A stretch of 64,000 nt of DNA from an uncultured bacterium (GTDB lineage: Bacteria; Acidobacteriota; Thermoanaerobaculia; Multivoradales; JAHZIX01), in the NCBI GenBank assembly GCA_965368975.1, contig CBDUPA010000018.1, positions 64,001 through 128,000 of the forward strand, read 5' to 3'. Under the pieces are notes generated by a model. The model was not told the origin of the DNA. It was given only the letters and a program-made list of their open reading frames with translations, and did no database searches. The translations under genes were made by a program, and so were the position numbers. Every line of letters starts with the position of its first letter. The stretch's first letter is position 1. Shown piece by piece: positions 3,359 to 17,605 of the stretch.

Positions 3359-4102
3359 TCAACGACGAAGTAGCGGCAGGGCAACAGCAGACAGCAGCAA
3401 GATCAGCAGCACCATGCCCCACTCATCGAGCGTGGGAATCGTCACGACCGGAGTCGGAGCCACGGCCGGGTCATAGGAAAGGGTCCACGCGAAGCCATCA
3501 CCGGCGCCAGGTATCGGCTCCGTATCGGTCACCGTGAAGGTGACCGAAGTGATCGGGCCAAACAGCTCGACGGTGCCACAACCTCCATTCGGGTTGCCTC
3601 CCGCAAGGTCTTCGCAACCTCCCAAGAGCGCCTGGGCCGGCGTCGAGTTGAGCACCGATCCCGTGACTTCGAATTCCGGGTTGCCTGATAAGCGAGCCAC
3701 GGTCACGCCACCGAAGTCAACGGTTCCGAAGTCCAGATTGACGAAATGGAAGCGCGGATTGAGCACTGGTTGCGAGAAGGTAACAGTCAGGTCGGCGGAA
3801 CCAACGGTGCCGCCGGCATCCACACTACCGATGGACCAGACCGTACCCACGGGCGGCGTCGGCGTGAACCAGACGTCTGGATAGTTCGCACTACCGTCGA
3901 CCGGTATCGTAAGGCTCAGCAAGGTATTCACAGCACTGATGGCATTCCCCGTGCTGGCGGTGCCGGTCACCGCGCCGCCGAAGTCGAAGGTAGTGTTACT
4001 GGTCCAGTTGGCGAAGACCTGCTGTGCGCTGGCGGCAGAAGGGACCAGCAGCACCAGAGCGGCGAACAGAGACAGGGCGACGCGGAAGCAAGTTCGGAAC
4101 AT
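3359..4102 (-). CDS. IPTL-CTERM sorting domain surface protein
   Basis: Signal peptide MFRTCFRVALSLFAALVLLVPSAASA; C-terminal IPTLDEWGMVLLILLLSAVALPLLRR (IPTL motif, TM helix, basic tail). Confidence 0.85.
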   Translation of the reverse strand: MFRTCFRVALSLFAALVLLVPSAASAQQVFANWTSNTTFDFGGAVTGTASTGNAISAVNTLLSLTIPVDGSANYPDVWFTPTPPVGTVWSIGSVDAGGTVGSADLTVTFSQPVLNPRFHFVNLDFGTVDFGGVTVARLSGNPEFEVTGSVLNSTPAQALLGGCEDLAGGNPNGGCGTVELFGPITSVTFTVTDTEPIPGAGDGFAWTLSYDPAVAPTPVVTIPTLDEWGMVLLILLLSAVALPLLRR

Positions 4103-4152: not shown

Positions 4153-4168
4153 AGCAAAGCCAGTGCCA
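4153..4168 (-). promoter_or_regulatory. sigma54 (-24/-12) promoter for the IPTL-CTERM gene
   Basis: Minus strand TGGCAC-TGGCT-TTGCT, matching consensus TGGCAC-N5-TTGCW, about 50 bp upstream of ATG 4102. Confidence 0.8.
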
Positions 4169-4208: not shown

Positions 4209-4266
4209 GGACACCATCGTACACAAATGAACATACCTGGACATGCCGACGAACATCCTTGGACAT
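4209..4266. repeat. Six helically phased GnACAY direct repeats (candidate enhancer/UAS)
   Basis: GGACAC 4209, GTACAC 4219, GAACAT 4229, GGACAT 4239, GAACAT 4251, GGACAT 4261 (spacings 10,10,10,12,10), upstream of the sigma54 promoter at 4153-4168. Confidence 0.6.
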
Positions 4267-4309: not shown

Positions 4310-6004
4310 TCACGGGTCGGACAAGAGCCCTAGGCCTCGCGCGCGTCGCTTGAGGCCCGCTAGCGAGACACGCAACTCGGCCGCCCCCCGCCGCAAGCTG
4401 CCACCATTGCGTTCCAGGACCTGCCTCAACTCCTGCTCCGAGATATCGACTGCTTTGCGCAGCTGCGAACAATCGTCGATCAGGCGGTACAGCGTCGGCC
4501 GCGAGACACCCAGGGCCTGCGCCGCCGGTTTGAGCTGCCAGTGGTGCTGCTCCAGCACCTGCAACAATTCCTCCTCCGTCACCTCGACCGCACGCCGGAA
4601 GCGCCCGGAGTCCGTCACCGACGGCTCTGTGGGCCGCACCACGCTGGTGTGCTGGGTCTGCTGCTCGATCGCGGCTGGCCGGGACGCCGGAGAAGGCTTG
4701 GGAGACGGCAGCAGCCGCTCCAGCGAGGCTGCGTCGGTGTGCGGGTCAGGGCTGTTGCGGTACATCACCAGCTGGCGCGCTACGTTACGCAGCTGACGCA
4801 CGTTGCCTGGCCAGTCGTAGCGCACCAGCCGGGCCACCAGTTGCGCCGGCGGCCACGGCGTCTCGGAACCAGTGTGCTCCAGCGTCTCGGGCGTCGTCAG
4901 GTCCGCCAGTTCGCGGCCCAGAAAGTGGTAGAGCAAGCGGGCCACATCGTCGCGTCGCTGGCGCAGCGGCGGCAGGTGGATTTCGCAGCCGGCCAGACGG
5001 TACAGCAAGGGCGCCCGGAACGAACCACGCTCGATCGCCGCTTCCAGGTCCTCGTCGGTCGCCGCCAGCACCCGCACGTCGATCTGACGGCTCTCGGCAC
5101 TGCCCACGGCATGGATCTCACCACTCTCCAACGCCCGCAGCAGCGCGACCTGCACCTCCAGCGGCGCGGCTCCGATCTCGTCCAGAAACAGCGTGCCGCC
5201 CTCGGCGCGCTGGAAGAACCCCTGCTTGGCACGGTCGGCACCGGTATAGGCTCCGCGCACGGCACCGAACAACTCGGCCGCCGCCAGTGACGTCGGCAAG
5301 GCGCCCATGTTGACCGCCACGAAAGGCCGGTGGCGCCGGCGGCCGATATCGTGCAACGCGCGCGCTGCCAATTCTTTTCCGGTACCGCTCTCGCCACGTA
5401 GCAACACCGGTACGTCCAGCTCGGCCGCGGCGCGCACCTCCTGGCGCAAACGCAGGATGGCGTCCGACTCGCCTTCCAGACCAAACGACGGCAACACCGG
5501 CGGCACCGGGTCCATCAGATGTAGCAACAGCGCCACCCGGCGCGCCAGCACCAGCACGACACCGGCTTCGATCTGCGTCGCGGTCAGTGCCATGCGGCCG
5601 GTCAGCACCTCGTCGTTGACGCGCACCGAGGTCTTGCACTGGTTGGCATCGAGCGTCACGCCCCCCTCGGCCTCAGTGCCGCCTGCCCCCGGCAAGAGCA
5701 AGAGCGGGCGACGGCTCAGATGCGGCTCTTCCAGGGGCCGCGGCACCGCGCTGCCGGCAGCCGCCCCGACGAACAGTGGGTGCAGACGCGACAGCTGCAC
5801 CGGCTGCCCCGACACCAACTCGGGGAGCACCACGCGTTCCCCCACCCGCCGCGGGTCCGGATGGCTCAGGATGACCACCCCTGGCACTCGCGGACTCTGG
5901 TCGAGGCTCGCCAGGTGATCGGTCGTGCACGTGGTTTCCTGTGTCGGATCTCCAGCGTTCATCGAAGCCCCGGCATCGAACCCAGACATCGCTTGCATTG
6001 GCAT
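4310..6004 (-). CDS. sigma54-dependent enhancer-binding protein (FHA-like N-terminus, AAA+, tandem Fis-type HTH); start uncertain
   Basis: Walker A GESGTGKE, GAYTGA loop, Walker B FLDEIG and WPGNVRQL. Two HTHs: AAQALGVSRPTLYR and AAELRVSLAGLKRR. Confidence 0.9.
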   Translation of the reverse strand: MPMQAMSGFDAGASMNAGDPTQETTCTTDHLASLDQSPRVPGVVILSHPDPRRVGERVVLPELVSGQPVQLSRLHPLFVGAAAGSAVPRPLEEPHLSRRPLLLLPGAGGTEAEGGVTLDANQCKTSVRVNDEVLTGRMALTATQIEAGVVLVLARRVALLLHLMDPVPPVLPSFGLEGESDAILRLRQEVRAAAELDVPVLLRGESGTGKELAARALHDIGRRRHRPFVAVNMGALPTSLAAAELFGAVRGAYTGADRAKQGFFQRAEGGTLFLDEIGAAPLEVQVALLRALESGEIHAVGSAESRQIDVRVLAATDEDLEAAIERGSFRAPLLYRLAGCEIHLPPLRQRRDDVARLLYHFLGRELADLTTPETLEHTGSETPWPPAQLVARLVRYDWPGNVRQLRNVARQLVMYRNSPDPHTDAASLERLLPSPKPSPASRPAAIEQQTQHTSVVRPTEPSVTDSGRFRRAVEVTEEELLQVLEQHHWQLKPAAQALGVSRPTLYRLIDDCSQLRKAVDISEQELRQVLERNGGSLRRGAAELRVSLAGLKRRARGLGLLSDP

Positions 6005-6050
6005 GGCCAGAGTGTACTCGATTCCGAAACCGCCTTCGAAGCGTCGAATC

Positions 6051-6066
6051 TGGCATGTGCTTTGCT
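6051..6066 (+). promoter_or_regulatory. sigma54 promoter for ORF 6196
   Basis: TGGCAT-GTGCT-TTGCT. Confidence 0.75.
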
Positions 6067-6195
6067 AGAGTCCATCCATATTCCGGACCGGTTTTCCAGG
6101 CACAGAAGACCGGTTCAAAGAAATTCGCATTCTGATTATGATGTCAGGATCGCGAGAAGTGACGCCAACCCGTTTGATGTACTCAAGGAGTTCCA

Positions 6196-6753
6196 ATGGC
6201 TCTCAAGCATCCCAACGCCATCCCTGCGGGCCTCATCCCCGCGGGCACCGACGACAACTTCGACTACTACGCAAAGTACGAGGCTTCTGGAAACACCCTC
6301 AACTTCTACTCCGATCCTGAGGGCACCGAAGCAACGACTCCGCCTGGCTGTGTCACCGACAAGAACAAGAAGTTCGGACACATCCTGGTGATGACCAACA
6401 ACTCAGAAGGTACCTTCGCCGATCCGGCGGTGACATGGGAAGGCCAGGTTCCGAACACGACTCCACCGCCCCCCATCAGCGCCGTCACCCGTTCCACGGA
6501 AGGCGAAGGCTTCTCGTTCGTCGACGACAACGACCCGCGACCGGAAAACACGACCACGTATCACTTCACCATCTGGGTACACCCCAACGCGGGCGGCAAT
6601 CCGACCGGTCATGAAGAAGTCGCGCCTCAGGCCGTGCCGATGGGTCCCGGCCCCGTGGTCATCGGCTTCGGCCCCAGCGGCACAGAGCACGGCTTCGATC
6701 CGACCGTGGTCAACAAGGGTGAGTACGGGGGCGACGGCGGCACCGGTAGCTGA
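6196..6753 (+). CDS. Hypothetical 185-aa protein, beta-rich, C-terminal DPxVxN motif (DP-EP-like)
   Basis: AAGGAG RBS and an upstream sigma54 promoter; ends ...YHFTIWV...FDPTVVNKG. Family assignment is tentative. Confidence 0.7.
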   Translation: MALKHPNAIPAGLIPAGTDDNFDYYAKYEASGNTLNFYSDPEGTEATTPPGCVTDKNKKFGHILVMTNNSEGTFADPAVTWEGQVPNTTPPPPISAVTRSTEGEGFSFVDDNDPRPENTTTYHFTIWVHPNAGGNPTGHEEVAPQAVPMGPGPVVIGFGPSGTEHGFDPTVVNKGEYGGDGGTGS

Positions 6754-6800
6754 ACCAGCAACTCCCTGAGCAGCTGCAAAGCAGCGCGGCCGACCACCGC

Positions 6801-9545
6801 TCAGTTGGTGGTCGGCTGGCTGGCCGCCGCGGAGAGACCCAGGCGCGACCGTAACTCGTCGAACCAGGGAAACGAGAACCAGCGCGGTTCGAAGTCTTGC
6901 TCCAGCGCACGCCGAGCGTTGACCAGGGCCGAAGCCTCGTCGCCGACCAGCGCGTAGACCAGGGCCGCCTCGTAGCTCACCTGCGGGTTGTCCGGAAACT
7001 GACGCAGTGCCGCCTGTACCGACGCCACGGCCTCCTCGTGCCGCTGCAGGCGGGCCTGCGCCTGCGCCCGCACGGTCAGCAGCGCCTCCGGCCGCGGATC
7101 GTCCGCCGCTAGCTCCAAGACGCGCCCGTAGAGCTGCGCCGCGACGTCCTCGTGACCCAGTAACAGCTCGGCATCCGCCAAGTTGAGCGCGGTATAGGGC
7201 GACGATGGACCCAGGCCAAAGGCCTGATGGAAGCGCGCGGCAGCCTCCTGGTAGCGCTGCAGCAGCAGGTAAGCTGTGCCTAGGTTGGTCAGCTCGGTAA
7301 CCTCCGGCGAGCGCTCCACCAACCGCTCGTAGAGCTCGGCCGCACGCTGTGCACTGCCGTTGAGCAGTTCCAGCTGTGCCAGCCGCGACAGGCCATCGAA
7401 GTGATCCGGCGCCAGCCGCAGGCCCGCCTCCAGACTGGCACGCGCCCCCTCGACGTCCCCTTGGCGGTAGAGCAGGTCCGCCAGGTCGAAGTAATAGGCC
7501 AACGACGGCAGTCTCTCGACCGCCTCACGCATCGCCGCCACCGCTTCCACGCCGCGTCCGCGCCGCTCCAGCAACAAGGCCCCATGCATCAGGCTCAGAG
7601 CATTGCCCGGCTCCAAGCGTCGCAGCTTGTCCAAGTGGCCTTCCGCCTCGTCCAGACGGCCAGCGATACGCGCCACCTGTATCGAGCGCGCCAACACCTG
7701 CGCATCTTCAGGTGCCAGCTCCCGGGCCCGCCGCAGTGCCGCCTCGGCTCGCTCCAGATCGTCTCGGTCGCGTTGCTCCTGGAAGCGCTGCAGGTAGATC
7801 TGCACGCGCAGCAGCGGCGCCGCCAGGAAGCGTGGTGACGACTGCTCCAGGGTCTCCAGGTCGCTCAGCAACTGCGTCGAAGAACGCACCGTCGTCCGCT
7901 GTAGGTAGCTCTGGTAGAGGCGCAGGAACCTCTCATAGTCCTCGGCGCGCACCTCCAGATCCGGGACACCCGACTGCAGCCGTTCGTCGGGATAGCCACG
8001 TCGCAGGTGGTCGAGTACTGCTCGCGAGGTCACTAGCAGCTGCCGCCGATCGACACTGAAGCTCTCCGTCCACAGCACCCGGCCGTCGCTGCCTCGTACG
8101 CGCCGCAGCACCGCCTGACAGGCGCGTCGATCACACTCCAACCGTGACGTCAGAACCTCGTCGGCAGCTACCGTGCGCGCCAGCTCGACCAGGTCTGCTT
8201 GCGTACCACCTTCGGCCATGGTCCCCTCCACCGGTGCCAGCCGCCGAAAGCCGAGGATGCCCCGCAGCAAGGCCGTATGGACCGCATTCGCCGTCAACTG
8301 CAGATCTTCGCGCTCCTCCTCCTCATCCTGCCCGTTGACCACCACCGCTGTGTGCGGCACCGCGACATAGCGCTGCTCCATCGGCGGTCGCAAGTTCCAC
8401 CACAGTGCGCCCGCGAGCACAGCAACCGTCAGTGCCAGGATCACGATCCAGCCCGACTTCCTCGCCGAACCCGTCCGCGAAGATACCGTCGATGGCGTCT
8501 CCTGGAGGTCTGGCGGCACCGCCGAGGCCGGTTGTGGTTGCTCCCAGGCTGTCGGCCCGGCCGTGGCCTGCTCCCCTGACCCCAGGGTTGGAGCTGCCTG
8601 CTGAGCGTAGGATTCGTAGCTTTGCTGCAGCCCGCTCCCGCCATCGAACTGCGCCAGGTCGCGCAGGGCCTGTTCGGCACTCTGCGGTCGCTGCAGCGGG
8701 TCCTTCTCCATCAAGCGCTCCACAAAGGCCGAGAGCCCCGGCGGCACCATCGGGTCGAGGAGGTGCGGCGGCGGCGGCTTGGCGGTGCAGATTCGGTGCA
8801 CGATCATCGCCGGCGCTTCGGCCCGGAAAGGCGAGCGTCCGGTCAGCAACTCATAGAGGATCGACCCCAGAGCAAACAGATCCGTCCGCTGATCCACCGG
8901 CCGTCCCAAGACCTGCTCCGGCGCCATCGCGGTCATGGTGCCGGCGATGTGGCCCTCACGAGTCAACCGCGTCTCGTCGACACCCACGCCGAAGCGGCCG
9001 GCGATGCCGAAGTCCAGAATCTTGACCTGCTCGCCCTCGTCGCCGGTCTCACCATGGCTGAGCATGATGTTCTCCGGCTTCAAGTCGCGATGCACCACAC
9101 CCGCCGCGTGCGCCGCCGCCAACCCCCGCAACAACTGCCGCGCCATGCGTAGCACCCGCGACGGCTCCAGCGGCCCGTCGCGCAGAACCTGGCGGAGCGA
9201 GCGTCCGTCCACCAATTCCATGACGATCCACTCGCCGCTCTCCTCCTCCACCCAATCGTGCACTTGCACGATCGCCGAATGCCGCAGCCGAGCCACCAGC
9301 CGCGCCTCTCGGCGCAAGCGCTTCGCCTGGTTGCCCGAGTCCGTGCCCGGCCGGATCCGCTTCAGCGCCACCGGCCGATCGAGCCGAGAATCGAATCCGG
9401 CGTAGACCTCCCCCATGCCCCCCTCGCCCAGGCGGCCTTGCACCTGATAGGGGCCGACAGTCAAGCCCGACTCGGAAGAGATCTCCCCCGACGGGGTCGC
9501 CTCGGACAAGTCGAGCTCAGATGGGGGGTGCTGAGGCTCAGTCAT
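6801..9545 (-). CDS. Membrane Ser/Thr protein kinase with C-terminal TPR repeats
   Basis: LGEGGMGEVY, VALK, HRDLKPEN, DFG, APEQ and DLFALG motifs; TM segment WIVILALTVAVLAGALWW; TPR-like helices. Start placed at MTEPQ, which is uncertain. Confidence 0.92.
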   Translation of the reverse strand: MTEPQHPPSELDLSEATPSGEISSESGLTVGPYQVQGRLGEGGMGEVYAGFDSRLDRPVALKRIRPGTDSGNQAKRLRREARLVARLRHSAIVQVHDWVEEESGEWIVMELVDGRSLRQVLRDGPLEPSRVLRMARQLLRGLAAAHAAGVVHRDLKPENIMLSHGETGDEGEQVKILDFGIAGRFGVGVDETRLTREGHIAGTMTAMAPEQVLGRPVDQRTDLFALGSILYELLTGRSPFRAEAPAMIVHRICTAKPPPPHLLDPMVPPGLSAFVERLMEKDPLQRPQSAEQALRDLAQFDGGSGLQQSYESYAQQAAPTLGSGEQATAGPTAWEQPQPASAVPPDLQETPSTVSSRTGSARKSGWIVILALTVAVLAGALWWNLRPPMEQRYVAVPHTAVVVNGQDEEEEREDLQLTANAVHTALLRGILGFRRLAPVEGTMAEGGTQADLVELARTVAADEVLTSRLECDRRACQAVLRRVRGSDGRVLWTESFSVDRRQLLVTSRAVLDHLRRGYPDERLQSGVPDLEVRAEDYERFLRLYQSYLQRTTVRSSTQLLSDLETLEQSSPRFLAAPLLRVQIYLQRFQEQRDRDDLERAEAALRRARELAPEDAQVLARSIQVARIAGRLDEAEGHLDKLRRLEPGNALSLMHGALLLERRGRGVEAVAAMREAVERLPSLAYYFDLADLLYRQGDVEGARASLEAGLRLAPDHFDGLSRLAQLELLNGSAQRAAELYERLVERSPEVTELTNLGTAYLLLQRYQEAAARFHQAFGLGPSSPYTALNLADAELLLGHEDVAAQLYGRVLELAADDPRPEALLTVRAQAQARLQRHEEAVASVQAALRQFPDNPQVSYEAALVYALVGDEASALVNARRALEQDFEPRWFSFPWFDELRSRLGLSAAASQPTTN

Positions 9546-9651
9546 CGTAGATCCCGGAACCTTCGGTTCGGAGTCTTGGGATTCTACGCTAATCCTCAGG
9601 TCGTCTGCTTTCCGACAGCCGTAGGCGCAAGCTATCCACGATCGCCCACTC

Positions 9652-9686
9652 ATGTCCGTGGATGTCCAACGAACAGGAACGGACAC
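9652..9686. promoter_or_regulatory. Phased RTGTnC/GnACAN dyad (candidate UAS)
   Basis: ATGTCC 9652, ATGTCC 9662, GAACAG 9671, GGACAC 9681. Same motif and 10-bp phasing as 4209-4266. Confidence 0.5.
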
Positions 9687-9729
9687 CGAAAAACCGCTCC
9701 ACAAAGCCGAGAACCAGGCTCTCGGACAC

Positions 9730-9745
9730 TGGCACTACTCTTGCA
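9730..9745 (+). promoter_or_regulatory. Consensus sigma54 promoter
   Basis: TGGCAC-TACTC-TTGCA, an exact match to consensus. Confidence 0.85.
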
Positions 9746-9756
9746 TTTGACCAACA

Positions 9757-9882
9757 CCCACGAGGGTCTCATCGCAAGGCGGTCACCCGCTACGAGAGAA
9801 CAACAGTTCGGAGCGCTTCGACAGCTTCAGCGTCAACGACAGCTGTCGAAGAATCCCACCCCCTGTTTCAGGGGGCTTTTTT
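9757..9882 (+). ncRNA. Candidate sigma54-dependent small RNA or leader RNA
   Basis: Lies between the sigma54 promoter and an intrinsic terminator. Perfect 11-bp stem 9816-9826/9841-9851. No ATG-started ORF inside. Confidence 0.55.
9859..9882 (+). terminator. Rho-independent terminator
   Basis: CCCCCTG-TTT-CAGGGGG followed by CTTTTTT. Confidence 0.8.
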
Positions 9883-9916
9883 GTTGCACGAATTCCTGAG
9901 CATAGAGCTATCATAT

Positions 9917-9944
9917 TTGCGTTCTTATCAGTATCCGCTATGCT
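9917..9944 (+). promoter_or_regulatory. Possible sigma70-type promoter for the ATPase/deaminase operon
   Basis: TTGCGT-16 nt-TATGCT in a locally AT-rich stretch. Confidence 0.35.
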
Positions 9945-10098
9945 TATACCAATCTTCTCCACCGAAATCGAACCGATCTCGGTTTTTTCTCTCTAGGAAC
10001 GCGGTTGAGTCAGCCAGGAGCTGGCGTTGGGATCTGCATCTCGTCGAGAGCGGCCTGACGGCGGCAGCCTGGAAACCACTGTTTCTCAGGGAGAGCGC

Positions 10099-13000
10099 AT
10101 GTCTGAGTCCATTTCCAGAAATCGAGTTCTTACGATCGACCTTGATCGCTCGAGGGCACCTCGCGCCTTCCGTGATCAAAACAGTCTCTGGGCCAGAGAT
10201 CTTGCCCGCATCTATCGACTGATCAAACATCAGGTCGATTTGATTGCTCCAGACAAGAAAGACGATGAGCAAGAGTCCGAGTGTCGGTCAAAACACAGGA
10301 AAAGCGAACGGCCCTGGTTGTCAATCGCAATCTTCGGTCCCTCGGGGTGCGGCAAGAGTTCCCTGCTGCGAACCCTGGTTGGTGATGTCGAGCGGCCACG
10401 CCTCCTCCCTGCCAGCTTGCGCAGCAAGGTTGCCTCGCTCCCCGTAACAGATCCGACAACTTGGTCCTCGAACGAGCAGTTCCTCTATGCGTTCTTGGCG
10501 AGTGCGTTGGAAAGAGAGCAGGACGCGCAGCACGACGACGAGGGGCCGCGCACGCTGGCGCGAGGACTCACCCCGGTACAGCTCGCCTTCCAGGACGTCA
10601 ACGAATACCTGCGAGTGGTCGACGACCCAGGCAAGACCGACGAAAACGATCCGCTCGGCTTGAGTTTGCAGAAACTCGAACGCCACACGAGCGGCCTGCG
10701 TCTAAGAGCTGCTCTGGGTACGTTCATTGACAGCCTGGCCGCGGCGCTGCAAGCGAAGGTCGTGCTACTTCCGGTCGACGATCTGGACATGGCTCCGGAA
10801 CACTTGGTGGAGTCACTGCAGGCGTATCAAAGCTTTCTCGTGCACCCAAAGCTCATCCCCATTTTCACGTTCACGGAGCGCATGCCTGAGGAACTGATTG
10901 AAGCGCACTTCCGCCAGCGCCTACGGCTCAAGGGGGACTCTGGCTCCCCAAGGGCGCAACGGGAAGACAACGACTACTCCCGCTTGACGATCGCTGAACA
11001 GATGGCCGTGCAGTTTTTGTCTCGCTGCTTCCCCGTGCGCAACCGCATTCGCCTGGGTCCAGCTCCAGCACGGGTACAACGCGCTGTCTACCAGAGTAAG
11101 CACGGCACTCGGGAAGACAACAGCGAGAATCCCAAGGTCTTGGAACTTCTGATCACGGCCAGCTTCCTCTTGTTCGGTTACCCAGACGAGGAGGATGCAC
11201 ACCGGGTACGTGCTGCGCTGCGCCCCTCTACCCTGCGGCGTCAGCTACAAGTCGTCGACGGCATGGCCGACTGCTTTCTCCACACGCTGCGGTCCCCGCA
11301 GCTGGCTCAGATGTCCTTGTTGGAAGACAGCACGAGTGAACAACTGAAGAGCTTGGGACAGCTGGCGGCCGATGACAAGTTGCACCTACCGGCCTTGTCC
11401 TTGAAGCCAGGCTGGGACTCCGAGCCCGAGAACCGGCTACGCAACCGCTGGAGCGCTCTGCAGGGGTACCTCCTCGCTCCCAGCCGAGCCAGCAACGACA
11501 TGAAACGTCCGCACGGAGCCGGGTACTTGAAGCTAGCCCACGAGCTTCGGAAGCTCAATCGCAACGCAACCTGGGGCACGATCTTCGACAGAGCAAGCTG
11601 GACCTTGCTCAACGTCCACCGAGATACCCTGCGAGAACTCAGCCTCTATCTCGAAGACCTCTACAGCTGGAGTCCGCGAGAGCTGCGCAGCGTGGTGCTG
11701 AACAAGATCCTCAGTCAGCAGGGTGGTGTGAGACGCATGGTCGTCGACCGTTGGCTGAATCGTACCGATTATCGGCGCAGCCAGGTCTTGTCCTTGCTGG
11801 CGGCCAATATCTTCCGCCCCTGGATGGTCGGTGAGGAGCCCTATGGTGACGAGGAAGCTGCTGTCCGAGCACAGCAGCGAATCGACAGCCACCCAGAGGA
11901 ATCCATCGACCAGAGCTGGAATCCCAGCGAGAACAACTCCTATCCGCTTCTCGAACCTGTGCAGGTATGCGACCGTCTCACCATCTCCTCCATTCACGGA
12001 CTACTTTGGTTTATCGAGGTCACGATGGGTTTCTACCTACCGCAGGTTGTCGCACGCAACTGGCGACTCTCTATTTCAGGTGACGACAACCTCACAGAGC
12101 GTTTCAGCGGCAATGGCTGGGACCTGCAACGAGCTCCGGTGAATGCCGTGCGCGTAGCTGATGCAAAGCAGGAAGGCACAGCCTTCGGCATGCTGTTTCT
12201 AGATGCCGTGGGCTATAGCCGAGCGCTCGACCCGCAGGACAACTGGCAAGACAAATTGAAGCGCCAGAAAGTCTTACCTCTCCACGAGGACCAGGAAGCA
12301 GCGAACTTCGACTTAGAGGCCTTGGCCCAGGAACTGGACGAGCTGCAGCCGGTCGAGCCCAAGACGACACCGGCCGGACGCCTCCTCCTACGCCTCTGGA
12401 CCTGTTACGGCTTCAGCCAGGGCCGGTACTGGGCCGTTCTCTCGCTGTGGCGGGGTCTCGGCATTATCGGACAAGTCCTGGAACTCGAGTTGCGCAAGCG
12501 TCAGCCCTTGGAGAAGCTCGCGGCTTTCTATACCGCGAAGCTCTCAGAGCACACGACTGGTAGCCTGTATCCAAGGCTCACGAACCTCATCAGAGAGCAA
12601 GAAGAGAAGGCCAATGCAGAGTCCGCCCCAGACGCCCAGGAACTGGTCAGGATCTATCAGTCGTTGTGCCAAGACCTCGAGCGTCTGCTGCGCTCGCATT
12701 GCCTGGCAGGTATGGTCCCGGGTGCATTCCTCGAGCGCACCAAGGAAGAACGCTCCATGCATCTGGCCTTTCCGAGCTGGCAGCCGCATGACCTCGAAAC
12801 CGAGGGGGCGATCAGGACACTGGCCCAAGACCTGCTCGATTGGCTGATCTTCAACTGGCACGACAAGATCTTTCCCTTGCCTGCTGGAGACATCTGGATC
12901 GGTTGGCGCGACGATTTCGTCCGCCGCCTGCACGGGGATCTGATCCTCGGCTCGCTCTGGCCGCATATGAAGGGCAATTATCTGGACAGCCACTTGCGTT

Positions 13001-13674
13001 ACGACTCAGGGCAAGAGCTGGCCTGCCTACGCAGCCTCCGCGTCGACGGTAGTAAGGCCAGCCGACACTTCAACGCCACCCAGATCGCAACGGGAACACA
13101 TGTCAGCCACTGGACAGCCAGTCTGGCGGTGAGCACTTGGTCCGATACCCTCCTCACGTACTGGCGCGGCTGCCCATCCCTCTTGAAACTCCTTCTCACC
13201 TGCCCGGTGTTCTTGAGAAGTCCGCAACGGTTTGGTCCGCTGCCGGTAGACAGCGACTCGCAGCCCCTCAATGAAGTCACCCAGCACGACTTCAGGACCA
13301 CTCTGCAGAACTTGAGAGACATTCCACAGGCAGACGGTAAGCGCCCCGCGAGCATCGAAGCAACGGGTCCAGAACGTGTCCGACTCGCTTGGCTGCATCG
13401 CCTGGCCATTCCAGCGGAAGTTTGGGACACGATCGTCGACTACTGGCAATCCTGTGCAGGAACTCCGCCAGACACAGAACCAGCGCAGCAGACCGGTGAC
13501 TCTGAGCCAGAAACAGCTGAAGCAGAGGAGGCCGCGGCGGAAGAGCGGCAGGCTCCTGGTACCGGCTCAAGTCCACCTCCCCTCTTGGTCGATGTTCACG
13601 ACCTGGTACCCGACGAGTTCTGCATCCAGCGCATTCCATTGCAAGTCTTCAGCTTTGCCGGAGATCCTGAGTGA
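10099..13674 (+). CDS. rdrA: RADAR-like P-loop ATPase (RdrA-like)
   Basis: Walker A AIFGPSGCGKSS, Walker B VVLLPVDDLDM, long helical C-terminus. Its stop overlaps the GTG of the deaminase. ATG 10099 has an AGGGAG RBS. Confidence 0.75.
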   Translation: MSESISRNRVLTIDLDRSRAPRAFRDQNSLWARDLARIYRLIKHQVDLIAPDKKDDEQESECRSKHRKSERPWLSIAIFGPSGCGKSSLLRTLVGDVERPRLLPASLRSKVASLPVTDPTTWSSNEQFLYAFLASALEREQDAQHDDEGPRTLARGLTPVQLAFQDVNEYLRVVDDPGKTDENDPLGLSLQKLERHTSGLRLRAALGTFIDSLAAALQAKVVLLPVDDLDMAPEHLVESLQAYQSFLVHPKLIPIFTFTERMPEELIEAHFRQRLRLKGDSGSPRAQREDNDYSRLTIAEQMAVQFLSRCFPVRNRIRLGPAPARVQRAVYQSKHGTREDNSENPKVLELLITASFLLFGYPDEEDAHRVRAALRPSTLRRQLQVVDGMADCFLHTLRSPQLAQMSLLEDSTSEQLKSLGQLAADDKLHLPALSLKPGWDSEPENRLRNRWSALQGYLLAPSRASNDMKRPHGAGYLKLAHELRKLNRNATWGTIFDRASWTLLNVHRDTLRELSLYLEDLYSWSPRELRSVVLNKILSQQGGVRRMVVDRWLNRTDYRRSQVLSLLAANIFRPWMVGEEPYGDEEAAVRAQQRIDSHPEESIDQSWNPSENNSYPLLEPVQVCDRLTISSIHGLLWFIEVTMGFYLPQVVARNWRLSISGDDNLTERFSGNGWDLQRAPVNAVRVADAKQEGTAFGMLFLDAVGYSRALDPQDNWQDKLKRQKVLPLHEDQEAANFDLEALAQELDELQPVEPKTTPAGRLLLRLWTCYGFSQGRYWAVLSLWRGLGIIGQVLELELRKRQPLEKLAAFYTAKLSEHTTGSLYPRLTNLIREQEEKANAESAPDAQELVRIYQSLCQDLERLLRSHCLAGMVPGAFLERTKEERSMHLAFPSWQPHDLETEGAIRTLAQDLLDWLIFNWHDKIFPLPAGDIWIGWRDDFVRRLHGDLILGSLWPHMKGNYLDSHLRYDSGQELACLRSLRVDGSKASRHFNATQIATGTHVSHWTASLAVSTWSDTLLTYWRGCPSLLKLLLTCPVFLRSPQRFGPLPVDSDSQPLNEVTQHDFRTTLQNLRDIPQADGKRPASIEATGPERVRLAWLHRLAIPAEVWDTIVDYWQSCAGTPPDTEPAQQTGDSEPETAEAEEAAAEERQAPGTGSSPPPLLVDVHDLVPDEFCIQRIPLQVFSFAGDPE

Positions 13675-16600
13675 CCTCTCCCACGAGCCCTGGCCCCAGG
13701 TCTCTGCCGGCACTACCAATCCACATCCTGGGCCACATTGCGCCGATCCTGACCTGGACCGAAAGTGGCAACGTCAGCCGGCTGCCACCGACCTGGCAAA
13801 CGGAATCCGTCGCCTTTGCCGATCGCGAACGCGACTGGCTGCTACGCGAGCTACCGACCTACTCCTACACCAACGTCCAGGAGATCGTCCGTGGCACGCG
13901 CAAGGACCACAGTGGCCCCAAGCCCGTCCGCATGCCTTCAGCTTCTCGCTTCCCTTCCCTGTCGCCACCGGAAGGATTCGACCTGCAGGAGGCTTTTCGG
14001 GCCCTCAACCTGTACTTCTTGCTCTGGAACGGCACGGAACCCTGCGTCCGGCAGGGGCGCATGGAAGAACTCCATGAGCTGGCACTTCGGCTACCGGCTG
14101 GCCACATCGTGCGCCACTCCCACGCCCGTGCCATTTCGGAGGGTGTCCTCACACTCGAAGACGCTCTGGCTCTACCGGAACAAGTGACCCTGCTGCCCAG
14201 CAACTCTCACGGCCTCCGGACGATAGTGCGCAAGGGGCTGAGCGAGAGCCACTTACACCTGACTGGTGTCACCAGTGCCGAGGAAACCTGGGCCAACAAC
14301 CTGCTCAGTCCAATACCCAGCCGTCCCGTTCATGCCAGGAGCCGTCCCGAACAACGGCTCCTGACTCTCAACCTGTTTGCCGGTAGGTTGCTCGCTCTAG
14401 CCGTCTGGTACTCCCTGCAGCCTATCAATACACTCCGGCTCGACCACCTCCTCCTGCTGCAAGGACTCGACAGTCTGTACTTCGCGCGCACTGCAGCCGA
14501 AGAGAACTATGCGGTGCTCTGGCTTCATCGCAGCCTCAAACGCACGCTCGAACACACGGCCAAGAAGGCCCTGCCACTGCCGATGGAATACAGTTTTCTT
14601 CGTCGTTGGTTGAGTCCGGCCAGTCACCATCTCACACAGCGCGGCAAGTACCTACCCTCCAGCCTTCCAGAGAGCCTTACCGACCGTTGTAGGTACTTGC
14701 ACAAGCTACACTTGGCCGCTCACCTCCGGCTCGTCCAGCTTCCGCACCACCCCCGGAACGCCCCTCCGAGGCAAACCTCCCCGACAGGTCGTGACGGCCA
14801 CTACACACCCGACCACCGCTGGTTCTTCTTGCACGAAACACTCTTCCGTTACCTGGTGTGCCGCACGCACCACTGGCAGATGACGGCTCAACAAGGGGCC
14901 ACCACTGGTCTGTCTTACTTCCGTACCTACTACAGCTCCCAGCACCGGAAGCTGACCAAGATCAACGACTTTCAGTACGCCCGGCTTGTGTTTTCGCAGC
15001 TGCGACGCTGGCGTGGTCTGCGCGTCCTCGAAGGCCGGGTTGCTCCCCCAAAGCGGGCACAGCAGCTAGCTCACTGGATTCTGGCCTACGCACAGCAGGA
15101 GGATCGCCGTATCCGCAAGTTCGGCTTGGTCGTGCACTTCAAGAAGGAAGACGAAGACCAAGAAGAACGCCCGCTACGCAGTTCACGTGGCCTCCGCCTG
15201 CGCTGGGGAAAGCGGCGACGCCTGGTACGAGACGAAGGTCTTCGCCTGTACCGACTACTGCAGAGCCCGACTCCGGTGACGCCGTTTGTCGTCGGCATTG
15301 ATGCCTGTAACCTGGAGCTGGCGACCCCTCCCGAAGTGTTCGCTCCAGTCTTTCGCTTCCTACGAGAACTGCCGATCTCACTGAAGGGCAATAATCGGCG
15401 CTACGCTCCCTACTTCGAGCTCGACCCGGTAATCCGCAAGCTAGCAGAGAACCGCCGTTTGGGCATGACCTACCACGTCGGTGAGGACTTCCGACACCTG
15501 CTTTCCGGACTGCGTGCCATCCACGAGGTCGTTCTGTTCTTGGAACCGCAGCCAGGTGACCGCCTCGGTCACGGCACCGCGCTGGCCCTGCAGCCACGGG
15601 ACTGGCTAGAACACAACGGGTACCAGGCCGTCGTACCCCGCCTGGAGTGGCTCGACACGCTCGTCTGGGTCCACCATTTCCTGGGTCCCGGTGACGATCT
15701 CGTCGGCGAGCTCGGTATCGAGGACGAGATTCAGCGCCACAGTTGGAAGGTCTACAGCGAGGCCCTGAGGCGGCTGGACCACAATCATACCCATCCTCTC
15801 GATCAAGATCTGCATCCGCTCAGCTTGTGGGACGCCTGGTATTTGCGACAACTCGACCCTTATTGTGTCGACCTACCCAAGCTGCGGAGTCGCGAGTTGG
15901 GGCTACGCCCCCTACGCAGTGCATCGGAAGAGAGCCGGCGCTGGTACTCAGTGCAGGATCGCGTCTTGCAGCACATTAATGAGACCGTCGGGTCGCGCAA
16001 CGCGTACCTACTGCTTGCGCTCTACTGGCTCAGCCCGCTAGTTCGAGAAGCTGGCAATGAGATCCTGGTCATCAACATGCAGAAGCAGCACCGGCAATGG
16101 CTCGAGCTGTGCCAGCGCGTCGAGGAACGCATGAAGGACCTGATCCATGAACGTGAGCTTGTCGTCGAGGTCAACCCCTCAGCCAATCGCATCATTGGTC
16201 CGATGGCACGCTACGGCCAACACCACGTCTTCCAACTGACGCTCGACGAGAACCGCCGACTGTCCCGCAAGGTTCGCGTGTCGGTCAACACGGACAACCC
16301 AGCCGTTTGCAACACCACTCTGGCCCATGAGCACTACCTACTTGGCGAGATCCTGATCGGGCAAGGCGTGCCGGAAGCCGAGGTGGCGAAATGGTTGGAG
16401 TGGCTGCGCAGCAACGGCGAGGAATACAACTTCGTACGCCGACTACGAACTCCGGAAGAGGATTCGGACACCAAGAAGCTCTTCGACTGGTTGCGCAACA
16501 TTCGTCCGACGGTTCGAGACGCTGAGACGCGTCAGAGCAAACTCGACGCCTTCCATACCTGGCATCAGCGAACTCGCCTCCGTAGCCAGGGCTTCGAGCC

Positions 16601-16820
16601 CGATCTGATCGAGCAACACCCCGAAGTCCTGGACCGTATCCTCAGCCTCGAACAGCAGCTCGAGCACCAGCGAATCGCTCACGAGGACGAGATAGCCACC
16701 CGCCACCAACTCGACCAGGAGTATCGGCAGGTCCTCGACCGATACAAAGCCGAATTGGCTGAACGCGATCGCCTCTGGGAAGAGGTGAAGAAACTACGAC
16801 GAACTGCTGCTGGCACCTGA
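13671..16820 (+). CDS. rdrB: RADAR-like large adenosine deaminase (RdrB-like)
   Basis: Amidohydrolase/ADA motifs ESHLHLTG, GIDACNLE, TYHVGEDF, RLGHGTAL, VEVNPSAN and VNTDNP; 1049 aa; GTGA overlap with the ATPase. Confidence 0.8.
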   Translation: MTSPTSPGPRSLPALPIHILGHIAPILTWTESGNVSRLPPTWQTESVAFADRERDWLLRELPTYSYTNVQEIVRGTRKDHSGPKPVRMPSASRFPSLSPPEGFDLQEAFRALNLYFLLWNGTEPCVRQGRMEELHELALRLPAGHIVRHSHARAISEGVLTLEDALALPEQVTLLPSNSHGLRTIVRKGLSESHLHLTGVTSAEETWANNLLSPIPSRPVHARSRPEQRLLTLNLFAGRLLALAVWYSLQPINTLRLDHLLLLQGLDSLYFARTAAEENYAVLWLHRSLKRTLEHTAKKALPLPMEYSFLRRWLSPASHHLTQRGKYLPSSLPESLTDRCRYLHKLHLAAHLRLVQLPHHPRNAPPRQTSPTGRDGHYTPDHRWFFLHETLFRYLVCRTHHWQMTAQQGATTGLSYFRTYYSSQHRKLTKINDFQYARLVFSQLRRWRGLRVLEGRVAPPKRAQQLAHWILAYAQQEDRRIRKFGLVVHFKKEDEDQEERPLRSSRGLRLRWGKRRRLVRDEGLRLYRLLQSPTPVTPFVVGIDACNLELATPPEVFAPVFRFLRELPISLKGNNRRYAPYFELDPVIRKLAENRRLGMTYHVGEDFRHLLSGLRAIHEVVLFLEPQPGDRLGHGTALALQPRDWLEHNGYQAVVPRLEWLDTLVWVHHFLGPGDDLVGELGIEDEIQRHSWKVYSEALRRLDHNHTHPLDQDLHPLSLWDAWYLRQLDPYCVDLPKLRSRELGLRPLRSASEESRRWYSVQDRVLQHINETVGSRNAYLLLALYWLSPLVREAGNEILVINMQKQHRQWLELCQRVEERMKDLIHERELVVEVNPSANRIIGPMARYGQHHVFQLTLDENRRLSRKVRVSVNTDNPAVCNTTLAHEHYLLGEILIGQGVPEAEVAKWLEWLRSNGEEYNFVRRLRTPEEDSDTKKLFDWLRNIRPTVRDAETRQSKLDAFHTWHQRTRLRSQGFEPDLIEQHPEVLDRILSLEQQLEHQRIAHEDEIATRHQLDQEYRQVLDRYKAELAERDRLWEEVKKLRRTAAGT

Positions 16821-16838
16821 TCTCGGTACCCTCCGGGT

Positions 16839-17438
16839 TCAGTGCCCCGCGAGTCGCAACTGCTTCCTGAGCCACTCGGCTTGACGCTGGATCTTCTCGT
16901 ACTCTTTGGTATTCAGCCTCTGCCAAGCCAAGATGCACAGCAGCATCAAGACGAGGCCAGCGAGGTTGCCAGCCGAGATTTTCCAGTAAGCCCAATCCGG
17001 GGCGTTCGGAGATAAAAACACCCACAGGTTGAAGCTGACTACCAAGCAAGCACTGTTCAAGGCCCAACCGCGGCAGATGCGTAGCCGACTACGGCCGTAC
17101 TCCAAGTGTGCCCACAGGGCAGAGCCGTAGTGCACTAGGGTCCTGCGATCGTGATGATAGCTTTCGAACTTACCTCTGTAGACCAGATTGAAATGCTTCT
17201 TGTCCTGCCTGTCGAAAAGCCAGTCTGCCACTCGATCCGTGATGATCCCCAGCAGATAGGCAAAGGTAAGGACAGGCAACAGAGTCGTGATCGACGAGAC
17301 ACTGCCACCGAGATTCCTGGGATCGTAGCCGAAAAGAGTCGCCCCCAATAGAAACACCCACGCCAATGTGCCAAAGCCAATAACCAGCAACTCCACGAAG
17401 AACTGCGTGGTTGCCATGGTCCCACCTGAATCAGACAT
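16839..17438 (-). CDS. Hypothetical 4-TM membrane protein
   Basis: AAGGAGGT RBS before ATG 17438; four hydrophobic segments; convergent with the deaminase, 18-bp gap. Confidence 0.75.
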   Translation of the reverse strand: MSDSGGTMATTQFFVELLVIGFGTLAWVFLLGATLFGYDPRNLGGSVSSITTLLPVLTFAYLLGIITDRVADWLFDRQDKKHFNLVYRGKFESYHHDRRTLVHYGSALWAHLEYGRSRLRICRGWALNSACLVVSFNLWVFLSPNAPDWAYWKISAGNLAGLVLMLLCILAWQRLNTKEYEKIQRQAEWLRKQLRLAGH

Positions 17439-17605
17439 CGACACCTCCTTTGAAACTGAGGAAGCTGGTAGCGACAGTAGAGTCAATGAACTTTAGCATG
17501 CAGCGTGGCGTGAAACAGCTTCCTCACTGGTAACGCGGCTGATGAATTCAGTGTACGCTCAGCCGGTCGCGGCCATCACCGGTACCGACAGGCCCCAAAT
17601 CTTCT

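What the first reader, a model, noticed from the sequence alone, without database searches (positions are those of the whole stretch)
9730..9882. sigma54-transcribed stem-loop ncRNA immediately upstream of a RADAR-like system
Seen: an exact sigma54 promoter (TGGCACTACTCTTGCA), then about 125 nt with no ATG-started ORF. It contains a GCGG-TCAC-CCGC hairpin, a perfect 11-bp stem (CTTCGACAGCT/AGCTGTCGAAG) and a clean intrinsic terminator, ~215 bp before rdrA. Known: RADAR was first linked to A-to-I RNA editing and later to ATP-to-ITP conversion, and structural work has proposed that RdrA engages stem-loop RNA. I know of no described cognate ncRNA. Inference: either a signal-induced sRNA that acts on the RdrA/RdrB complex (substrate, inhibitor or trigger), or an attenuating leader that puts RADAR under kinase/sigma54 control. 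This is the best candidate for a new system in the window.
Basis: partly seen in the sequence, partly recalled or inferred. Interest (0 to 1): 0.8.

Follow-up and report, generated by a model that had tools for sequence, protein, structure and literature searches.

The report
Orphan sigma54 small RNA beside RADAR island
A short, strongly folded, non-coding transcript unit with a textbook sigma54 promoter really is there, but it most likely belongs to the neighbouring kinase/activator signalling genes and only happens to sit next to a RADAR-like phage-defence island.

Summary
An exact sigma54 promoter lies at 9730-9745. About 127 nt follow with no plausible ORF: two stable hairpins, a 10-nt open linker and a strong intrinsic terminator.

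The link to RADAR is not supported. Five independent loci encode the same RdrA/RdrB-like family, and none has a sigma54 promoter or a match to the RNA model upstream of rdrA. The terminator has no competing antiterminator fold. GC content falls right after the terminator, and the rdrA, rdrB and accessory genes form a lower-GC block.

The promoter instead carries tandem ATGTCC half-sites about 80 nt upstream. The same phased sites precede the other exact sigma54 promoter beside the nearby activator gene. That activator has an FHA-fold N-terminus and sits by a Ser/Thr kinase, a cassette that recurs across the order.

Best reading (0.55): a lineage-specific, kinase/FHA-activator/sigma54-driven trans-acting sRNA, analogous to Pxr beside nla19. 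No homologue, target or expression data were found. It is a new member of a known kind, of modest interest.

The parts
9652..9667 (+). Enhancer-like site: tandem half-sites ATGTCC-N4-ATGTCC, 63-78 nt upstream of the -24 element. An inverted partial copy (CGGACA) lies at about 9680-9685.
   Evidence: ATGTYC is expected 0.043 times per 150 nt. Of 27 sigma54-type promoters in the genome, only this one, the one at 4153-4168(-) and one on contig C7 have 2 or more.
9730..9745 (+). Sigma54 (-24/-12) promoter TGGCACTACTCTTGCA. The predicted start is near A9756.
   Evidence: 3 exact matches in the window against 0.08 expected. RpoN is present in the genome. The start site is inferred from the usual -24/-12 spacing.
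9756..9882 (+). Predicted ~127-nt non-coding RNA.
   Evidence: No Rfam family matches: the best hit is 18.4 bits against a gathering score of 49.5.
9767..9799 (+). Stem-loop 1, which contains the GCGG/UCAC/CCGC hairpin (9779-9790).
   Evidence: Pair probabilities are mostly 0.84-0.996; the closing pair 9767-9799 is 0.445.
9800..9809 (+). Single-stranded linker AACAACAGUU, a candidate seed or Hfq-binding stretch (reads as three A-R-N triplets).
   Evidence: Unpaired in both the MFE and the centroid structures. The function is inferred. Hfq is encoded in the genome.
9810..9856 (+). Stem-loop 2 with the perfect 11-bp stem (9816-9826 paired with 9841-9851) and a 14-nt loop.
   Evidence: pair probabilities 0.95-1.0 in the 11-bp stem.
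9859..9882 (+). Intrinsic terminator: 7-bp stem with 6 G-C pairs, 3-nt loop, then U6.
   Evidence: Pair probabilities are 0.96-0.999, and no alternative pairing appears when the stem is forbidden.
9883..9999 (.). AT-rich spacer (GC 0.41-0.44) with a second terminator-like hairpin at 9970-9985. Probably the left edge of the lower-GC island.
6801..9545 (-). Ser/Thr protein kinase with C-terminal TPR repeats, divergent from the RNA gene.
   Evidence: Pkinase E 2.8e-50, several TPR families. The start at 9545 was chosen by eye from the alignment to the kinase domain.
4310..6004 (-). Sigma54 activator (bEBP): FHA-fold N-terminus, AAA+ sigma54-interaction domain (GAYTGA loop), Fis-type HTH.
   Evidence: Sigma54_activat E 2e-58, HTH_8. 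AF2 pLDDT 79, and nearly all of the ~40 Foldseek rows shown are FHA domains (best E 1e-3, TMt 0.63-0.77)..
4153..4168 (-). Second exact sigma54 promoter of the locus. It drives an IPTL-CTERM protein gene (3359-4102, -) and has four phased ATGTYC half-sites at 4229-4266.
10099..13674 (+). rdrA-like AAA+ ATPase gene. Not part of the RNA unit; it is the neighbour.
   Evidence: PADLOC RdrA E 2.6e-7. (family profile against the PDB RdrA chain 8hr7_A, E 7.9e-11). (Walker A at residue 80).
13671..16820 (+). rdrB-like adenosine deaminase gene, overlapping rdrA by 4 nt.
   Evidence: PADLOC RdrB E 2.9e-25. (PDB RdrB 8fnw, E 1e-19).
16839..17417 (-). Accessory membrane-protein gene of this RADAR-like family, here convergent with and downstream of rdrB.
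   Evidence: tblastn with the proteins encoded upstream of rdrA in L005 and L006 gives 45% identity, E 4e-41 and 2e-46; no Pfam family.

Best explanation
The unit at 9730-9882 is a stand-alone gene for a ~127-nt non-coding RNA transcribed by sigma54-RNA polymerase.

Proposed chain of events:
1. The neighbouring Ser/Thr kinase (6801-9545, -) phosphorylates a target.
2. The FHA domain of the activator (4310-6004, -) reads that phosphorylation.
3. The activator binds the ATGTCC repeats about 80 nt upstream of the promoter and opens the sigma54 complex.
4. A short RNA is made and ends at the strong terminator.
5. The RNA then acts in trans, probably by base-pairing through its open linker (9800-9809) with help from Hfq, on mRNAs that are not yet identified.

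The RADAR-like rdrA/rdrB/accessory block next to it is a separately acquired, lower-GC island with no demonstrable dependence on the RNA.

Shown: promoter, fold, terminator, lack of an ORF, shared upstream sites, FHA fold, and absence of the element from related RADAR-like loci.
Inferred: the transcription itself, which activator binds, the kinase-to-FHA link, trans action, and Hfq dependence.
For: - Promoter. It matches the consensus exactly and is far above chance (3 in the window against 0.08 expected). RpoN is present.
- Other promoters. By a crude script, 15 of the 19 exact sigma54 promoters in the genome are followed within 320 nt by an SD-preceded ORF of 40 or more codons. This one has no such ORF and has a terminator at +131.
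- Shared upstream sites. ATGTYC-N4-ATGTYC occurs 4 times in 7.13 Mb on both strands. Three of the four lie 76-98 nt upstream of the two exact sigma54 promoters that flank the bEBP/kinase genes. The half-site is expected 0.043 times per 150 nt. Among 27 TGGCA[CT]-N5-TTGCW sites, only these two and one on C7 have 2 or more.
- Activator. The bEBP has an FHA-fold N-terminus.
- Cassette. A kinase lies next to the bEBP, and homologues of the two proteins lie 1-3 kb apart in at least 17 places across the order (coordinates; G467).
- RNA architecture. It is typical of an sRNA: two hairpins, an open linker, a terminator with a U-tail, z -4.15 and -3.87. Hfq is present.
- No dependence on RADAR. None of 5 independent related loci has the element.
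- Precedent. pxr lies beside the sigma54 regulator nla19, has a predicted sigma54 promoter and folds into three stem-loops (PMC5568312, passages).
Against: - No homologue was found. DNA search: 40 relatives, with only 25-29-nt chance-level matches. Single-sequence covariance model: 120 genomes of the order, best hit 22 bits, E 0.05. So there is no covariation or conservation support.
- The nearest homologous kinase/bEBP pair examined (G467) has no such element beside the kinase.
- No target was found. A crude duplex scan over 7940 start regions and a 10-mer seed scan gave only chance-level results.
- There is no expression evidence.
- The half-site motif was defined after seeing these two promoters.
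- Which of the genome's 6 paralogous bEBPs binds it is not known.
- The consensus scan found no sigma70-type promoter between the terminator and rdrA. This leaves open how rdrA is transcribed.
Confidence: 0.55

Rival explanations
1. Sigma54-dependent leader. The transcript is the 5' part of the rdrAB mRNA, and partial or regulated read-through of the terminator puts the RADAR-like genes under kinase/bEBP/sigma54 control.
For: - It is on the same strand as rdrA and ends 216 nt upstream of it.
- The consensus scan found no sigma70-type promoter in 9300-10300.
- Only a weak TTGAGT-N17-TGGGAT candidate at 10005-10033 is visible by eye.
Against: - The terminator forms with probability 0.96-0.999. 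Forbidding it yields no alternative pairing of its arms (-39.0 against -52.1 kcal/mol).
- A second terminator-like hairpin lies at 9970-9985.
- None of 5 related RADAR-like loci has a sigma54 promoter upstream of rdrA.
- GC content drops immediately after the terminator.
Confidence: 0.15
2. By-product or remnant. The sigma54 promoter once drove a protein gene that the island displaced, or the transcript is simply young. A short RNA is made, but it has no selected function.
For: - It is an orphan: no homologue in 120 genomes of the order or in 40 relatives.
- Flanking sigma54 promoters of a paralogous cassette drive protein genes (C2 25692 and 30773).
- The lower-GC island starts right after the terminator.
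Against: - The body without the terminator is much more structured than shuffles (z -3.87, 0 of 200).
- It has a perfect 11-bp stem and a well-formed terminator, which are not expected of a decaying 5' UTR.
- No remnant of an ORF or Shine-Dalgarno site is visible.
Confidence: 0.15
3. Cognate RNA of the RADAR-like system: a substrate, inhibitor or trigger that RdrA or RdrB binds.
For: Only adjacency and the stem-loop content. Gao et al. reported A-to-G signatures in loops of stem-loop RNAs, as quoted in PMC9994260 (passage).
Against: - None of 5 related loci carries anything similar.
- The promoter's enhancer sites tie it to the bEBP locus.
- In the passages seen of PMC9994260, RdrB deaminates ATP/dATP, not hairpin RNA.
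- The rdrA start region shows no special complementarity (rank 5545 of 7940, crude test).
Confidence: 0.05
4. Chance. A promoter-like word and some hairpins lie in an intergenic region, and no transcript is made.
For: There is no expression data. My own arithmetic from base composition (no tool) gives roughly 5 of the 19 exact genome matches as expected by chance.
Against: Several features coincide within 230 nt: an exact promoter, phased upstream half-sites shared with a second promoter, a fold with z about -4, a terminator at the right distance, and no ORF.
Confidence: 0.05

Closest known systems
Pxr sRNA of Myxococcus xanthus (beside nla19)
   Same: - The sRNA gene sits next to a sigma54 activator gene.
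- It has a predicted sigma54 promoter with an enhancer site.
[quoted passage not shown]
   Different: - No sequence or structure match to any Rfam family was found. I did not check whether Rfam holds a Pxr model.
- From recall, Nla19 is a response-regulator-type activator. Here the activator has an FHA fold and a Ser/Thr kinase partner.
- No developmental or other role is known here.
Other sigma54-dependent sRNAs encoded beside their activators (Qrr/LuxO, GlmY/GlrR, CrcZ/CbrB, NrsZ/NtrC; recalled, not read here apart from LuxO abstracts in the listing)
   Same: The logic is the same: a signal-activated bEBP drives a short terminated regulatory RNA from a -24/-12 promoter near its own gene.
   Different: - Those activators are two-component response regulators, and those RNAs are conserved families with known targets or protein partners.
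- This one is an orphan with no known target.
- It lacks the repeated GGA loops of the CsrA/RsmA-titrating type (by eye).
RADAR (RdrA/RdrB) anti-phage system
   Same: The neighbouring genes are distant RdrA and RdrB relatives, and the family has its own small membrane accessory gene.
   Different: - RADAR as described in PMC9994260 (passages) is a protein-only system that converts ATP to ITP.
- None of the 5 related loci examined has an RNA gene upstream of rdrA.
- The RNA here is not a member or a conserved component of that system.
Transcription attenuators / riboswitch leaders
   Same: A structured RNA with an intrinsic terminator lies upstream of, and on the same strand as, an operon.
   Different: - There is no alternative (antiterminator) fold.
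- There is no leader peptide.
- There is no Rfam match.
- It is not conserved upstream of homologous operons.

Membership tests
sigma54-dependent promoter | GG at -24 and GC at -12 in TGGCAC-N5-TTGCW with exact spacing | tested here: met
   exact match at 9730-9745; 3 in the window against 0.08 expected.
sigma54-dependent promoter | The host encodes RpoN and a bEBP with a sigma54-contact loop | tested here: met
   RpoN: (Sigma54_DBD, E 4e-64). bEBP: (Sigma54_activat, E 2e-58). The loop reads GAYTGA rather than GAFTGA.
sigma54-dependent promoter | Upstream activator-binding sites about 70-150 nt from the promoter | tested here: met
   phased ATGTYC half-sites 76-98 nt upstream, shared with the promoter at 4153-4168(-). 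Binding itself was not tested.
sigma54-dependent promoter | Transcription start about 12 nt after the GC element, dependent on rpoN and the bEBP | not testable with these tools
   No sequencing run was listed.
trans-acting bacterial sRNA (Hfq type) | Own promoter, 50-300 nt long, no ORF, Rho-independent terminator with a U-tail | tested here: met
trans-acting bacterial sRNA (Hfq type) | Accessible seed with identifiable mRNA targets | tested here: inconclusive
   An open 10-nt linker exists. The crude target scans gave only chance-level matches.
trans-acting bacterial sRNA (Hfq type) | Conservation with covariation in related genomes | tested here: not met
   No homologue in 40 relatives by DNA search or in 120 genomes of the order by covariance model. 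No genome of the same genus was available.
trans-acting bacterial sRNA (Hfq type) | Hfq present in the host | tested here: met
   (Hfq, E 1.2e-16, above the cut-off).
RADAR component | Co-occurs with rdrA/rdrB in related systems | tested here: not met
   None of 5 independent loci (L005, L006, L029=L049, L030, L050) has a sigma54 promoter upstream of rdrA or a model hit with E below 1.
RADAR (for the neighbouring genes) | RdrA-type AAA+ ATPase and RdrB-type adenosine deaminase in one operon | tested here: met
   The genes overlap by 4 nt. An HxH motif is at RdrB residues 194-196. Defence activity was not tested.
terminator-antiterminator attenuator | A mutually exclusive alternative structure that sequesters a terminator arm | tested here: not met
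   terminator pair probabilities are 0.96-0.999, and with the terminator forbidden its arms stay unpaired.
any Rfam family | Score at or above the family's gathering threshold | tested here: not met
   best hits are anti-hemB at 18.4 bits (threshold 49.5) and Phe_leader at 18 bits (threshold 55); none in the whole window.

The most novel reading that the evidence does not exclude
A Ser/Thr kinase, through an FHA-type sigma54 activator, gates a RADAR-like defence island. The route would be either conditional read-through of the short RNA's terminator into rdrAB, or the RNA acting on the rdrAB mRNA or on the RdrA/RdrB complex. Either would be the first signal-transduction or RNA input described for RADAR.
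Probability: 0.1. Interest if true: 0.7.

Novelty: new member of a known kind. Interest (0 to 1): 0.3.

Why it matters
If the transcript is real, it adds a case in which a eukaryote-like Ser/Thr kinase and an FHA-type enhancer-binding protein, rather than a two-component response regulator, drive a sigma54-dependent small RNA. It would also give a handle on a kinase/activator cassette that recurs many times in this order of bacteria. For RADAR the result is negative but useful: the RNA is not a conserved part of this divergent RdrA/RdrB family. The family's conserved third component is a small membrane protein.

Tried and rejected
**Known RNA family.** Rfam gave nothing, either at E up to 10 on 9000-10500 or at gathering thresholds on the whole window and on L034.

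**Homologues of the element.**
- DNA search in 40 relatives found only 25-29-nt matches, E 8e-4 to 6e-3.
- The single-sequence covariance model R1 found only one 22-bit hit (E 0.05) in 120 genomes of the order.
- R1 found nothing below E 1 in 33 loci.
- The plasmid collection gave no match.

**More RADAR-like loci.**
- Single-protein scan of genome contigs: none.
- Alignment A1 in genome contigs: 2 loci.
- A1 in metagenome contigs: none, because the generic Walker A pattern filled the rows.
- A1 in 400 genomes of the window's phylum: only the window's own genome.
- Sub-alignment A2 in metagenome contigs: 2 loci.
- A2 in viral contigs: none.
- A2 in 300 genomes of the class of G505: 2 further genomes, one of which duplicates L029 at 98% identity.

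**Island boundaries.** No att-like repeat was found: only one shared 10-mer between 9700-10110 and 16800-17700.

**Target prediction.** RNA.duplexfold against 7940 crude start regions gave unrealistic long duplexes (mean -52 kcal/mol). The ranks were rdrA 5545, rdrB 7343, accessory 2163, kinase 7182, bEBP 4713, IPTL gene 3914 and p185 6503 of 7940. The 10-mer complement scan of the linker gave only 10-12-mers scattered over the genome. Neither result is evidence for or against trans action.

**Expression.** No run was listed and no RNA holder was listed.

**Orthologous locus.** The 185-aa protein (6196-6753) has no relative in 120 genomes of the order. The G467 locus has the kinase/bEBP pair but no sigma54 promoter or RNA beside the kinase.

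**Third promoter.** The 1-mismatch promoter at 6051-6066(+) has no ATGTYC half-site within 150 nt, so I do not claim it for the same regulon.

**N-terminus of the bEBP.** Pfam gave no hit at E up to 0.1 and the PDB sequence search gave nothing. Only the fold comparison showed the FHA domain.

**Literature.** My statement that no cognate RADAR ncRNA is described rests on two full-text searches: 4 terms, 7 papers, 5 listed; 22 papers, 10 listed. It also rests on term look-ups in PMC9994260 ('noncoding' 0, 'RdrC' 0, 'RdrD' 0, 'accessory' 0). The library lacks most subscription papers.

Full report
**Observation.**
- TGGCACTACTCTTGCA at 9730-9745 (+) matches the sigma54 consensus TGGCAC-N5-TTGCW exactly. 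The 64-kb window has 3 exact matches against 0.08 expected from shuffles.
- The 7.13-Mb genome has 19 exact matches and encodes RpoN.
- From the usual -24/-12 geometry, the transcript should start near A9756 (inference).
- The next 127 nt contain no ATG and no credible ORF.
- They fold into stem-loop 1 (9767-9799, with the GCGG/UCAC/CCGC hairpin), an unpaired linker AACAACAGUU (9800-9809), stem-loop 2 (9810-9856, with the perfect 11-bp stem) and a terminator (9859-9875 plus U6).
- The fold is far better than shuffles, both with the terminator (z -4.15) and without it (z -3.87); 0 of 200 shuffles matched either.
- The reverse strand folds as well, so strand assignment rests on the promoter and the U-run.

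**Surroundings.**
- Upstream and divergent lies a Ser/Thr kinase with TPR repeats (6801-9545, -). Further on is a sigma54 activator (4310-6004, -).
- Downstream on the same strand are distant relatives of RdrA (10099-13674) and RdrB (13671-16820): PADLOC E 2.6e-7 and 2.9e-25, PDB RdrB E 1e-19, and the family profile against PDB RdrA E 7.9e-11.
- A third gene (16839-17417, -) encodes a small membrane protein. Its homologues lie directly upstream of rdrA in other loci of this family.
- The rdrA-rdrB-accessory block has GC of about 0.55-0.62. The kinase and activator genes have 0.66-0.70, and the genome 0.654.
- GC drops to 0.41-0.44 immediately after the terminator.

**Is the RNA part of the RADAR-like system?**
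- I collected 5 independent loci of the same RdrA/RdrB family (35-48% RdrA identity): L005, L006, L029 (L049 is a 98% identical copy), L030 and L050.
- In 3 of the 5 (L005, L006, L050) the accessory membrane-protein gene sits directly upstream of rdrA.
- In L029 the upstream neighbour is a divergent Big_7/PKD protein gene. In L030 it is a PEP carboxykinase gene.
- None of the 5 has a sigma54-type promoter upstream of rdrA. The only relaxed match, in L050, lies inside rdrA.
- A covariance model built from the window's RNA found nothing below E 1 in any of them.
- The RNA is therefore not a conserved component of this family.

**Is it a leader of rdrAB?**
- The terminator stem forms with pair probabilities of 0.96-0.999 in the ensemble. 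When it is forbidden, its arms simply stay unpaired (-39.0 against -52.1 kcal/mol), so no antiterminator alternative exists.
- A second terminator-like hairpin follows at 9970-9985.
- On the other side, the simple sigma70 scan found no promoter between the terminator and rdrA. By eye there is only a weak TTGAGT-N17-TGGGAT at 10005-10033.
- Some read-through from the sigma54 promoter cannot be excluded.

**What ties it to the kinase/activator genes?**
- Upstream of the promoter lies ATGTCCGTGGATGTCC (9652-9667).
- The other exact sigma54 promoter of the locus (4153-4168, -, driving an IPTL-CTERM protein gene) is preceded by four half-sites of the same kind with 10-12-nt phasing (4229-4266).
- Genome-wide, ATGTYC-N4-ATGTYC occurs 4 times on both strands. 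Three of the four are these sites, 76-98 nt upstream of the two promoters.
- The half-site is expected 0.043 times per 150 nt. Among 27 TGGCA[CT]-N5-TTGCW sites, only these two and one on contig C7 carry 2 or more; the C7 site has palindromic ATGTCCGGGACAT.
- The motif was defined after looking at these promoters, so the statistics are indicative only. The agreement in sequence, phasing and distance is nevertheless what co-regulated enhancer sites look like.
- The activator's N-terminal 170 residues have no Pfam hit. They model with pLDDT 79 as a beta-sandwich, and nearly all of the ~40 Foldseek rows shown are FHA domains (best E 1e-3, TMt 0.63-0.77). The protein-language-model search gave the same lead.
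- FHA domains bind phosphothreonine (established knowledge), so the adjacent kinase is the natural input.
- Matches to the kinase's C-terminal half and to the activator lie 1-3 kb apart in at least 17 places in this order, including two further places in the window's own genome (coordinates; G467). This is a recurrent signalling cassette, unrelated to RADAR.
- Exact sigma54 promoters also flank a paralogous cassette on contig C2, where they drive protein genes.

**Conservation.**
- The element is an orphan. Nothing similar was found in 40 relatives by DNA or in 120 genomes of the order by covariance model.
- The window's genome is the only member of its genus among those searched.
- The closest activator/kinase pair examined (G467: 58% and 53% identity) has an 876-codon ORF where the RNA gene would be.
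- Conservation therefore neither supports nor refutes a function, and no covariation test was possible.

**Mechanism proposed.** Kinase signal, then FHA-activator, then binding at the ATGTCC repeats, then opening of the sigma54 promoter, then a ~127-nt terminated RNA. The RNA would act in trans through the open linker, possibly with Hfq, which the genome encodes.
- Shown: the sequence features, the shared sites, the FHA fold, the lack of an attenuator fold and the lack of association with RADAR-like loci.
- Inferred: transcription, the identity of the binding activator (the genome has 6 paralogues), the kinase-FHA link, trans action and Hfq dependence.
- My crude target scans found nothing above chance, including for rdrA.

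**Comparison with what is known.**
- The closest analogue is Pxr of Myxococcus xanthus: an sRNA gene beside the sigma54 regulator nla19, with a predicted sigma54 promoter and three stem-loops (PMC5568312, passages).
- Qrr/LuxO, GlmY/GlrR, CrcZ/CbrB and NrsZ/NtrC follow the same logic. I recall these; only LuxO abstracts were seen, in the listing.
- The difference here is the FHA/Ser-Thr-kinase input and the lack of any family relationship (no Rfam hit).
- In the passages I read of PMC9994260, RADAR is a two-protein complex that converts (d)ATP to (d)ITP. RdrB did not deaminate hairpin RNA, and no cognate RNA is mentioned.
- My two literature searches turned up no RADAR-associated ncRNA. The library is incomplete, and I did not read Gao et al. 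2020 or Gao et al. 2023.

**Verdict.**
- The reading as a sigma54-transcribed ncRNA is supported.
- The reading as a RADAR partner or RADAR leader is not supported, though read-through remains possible at low probability.
- It is best filed as a new, lineage-specific member of the known class of sigma54-dependent sRNAs encoded beside their activators.
- Interest is modest (0.3). The bold reading, kinase/sigma54 or RNA control of a RADAR-like island, keeps about 0.1 probability.

Noticed in passing
G000:C8:17266-17440 (L034 about 1767-1940): Another exact sigma54 promoter (TGGCACGAGGGTTGCA). About 150 nt follow, then a terminator-like hairpin with a T-run, and a second one at +270. It is a second candidate sigma54-dependent small RNA and has no Rfam match.
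   Followed up: partly
window 4310-9545 and many loci (for example G007:C7 180691-184798, G011:C93 650-4756, G000:C2 25962-30155 and 73148-77486): A cassette of a TPR-containing Ser/Thr kinase next to an FHA-fold sigma54 activator recurs at least 17 times across the order, with up to 11 or more activator paralogues per genome.
   Followed up: partly
G000:C7:157813-158100: A sigma54 promoter (TGGCACCGGCCTTGCT) preceded by two palindromic ATGTCCGGGACAT sites drives a 412-aa protein of unknown family. The half-site matches the one upstream of the RNA promoter, so this may be a further member of the same or a sister regulon.
   Followed up: partly
window 16839-17417 (-); L005 5289-5906; L006 5364-6003; L050 6535-7095: This divergent RADAR-like family has a conserved ~200-aa multi-pass membrane protein with no Pfam family (invariant EYGRSRLRICRGW stretch). 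It lies upstream of rdrA in 3 loci but downstream and convergent in the window. L030 instead has an unrelated 178-aa ORF after rdrB.
   Followed up: partly
window 9883-9999: An AT-rich spacer (GC 0.41-0.44) sits between the RNA terminator and rdrA, with a second terminator-like hairpin at 9970-9985. It may be the island's edge or another tiny transcript. No flanking att-like repeat was found.
   Followed up: partly
window 6051-6066 (+) and 6196-6753 (+): A one-mismatch sigma54 promoter (TGGCATGTGCTTTGCT), divergent from the activator gene, precedes a 185-aa protein. That protein has no Pfam family and no relative in 120 genomes of the order. The promoter has no ATGTYC half-sites.
   Followed up: partly
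window 49783-49798 (-): This is the third exact sigma54 promoter of the window (TGGCACAACAGTTGCT). My crude script found an SD-preceded 61-codon ORF only 232 nt downstream.
   Followed up: no
G000:C38:27925 (-): An exact sigma54 promoter lies near a paralogous activator gene (C38:25943-27457). By eye, about 90 nt downstream there is a good Shine-Dalgarno site and a roughly 16-codon ORF.
   Followed up: no
window 4310-6004 (-), protein residues about 245-260: The activator's sigma54-contact loop reads GAYTGA instead of the canonical GAFTGA.
   Followed up: no
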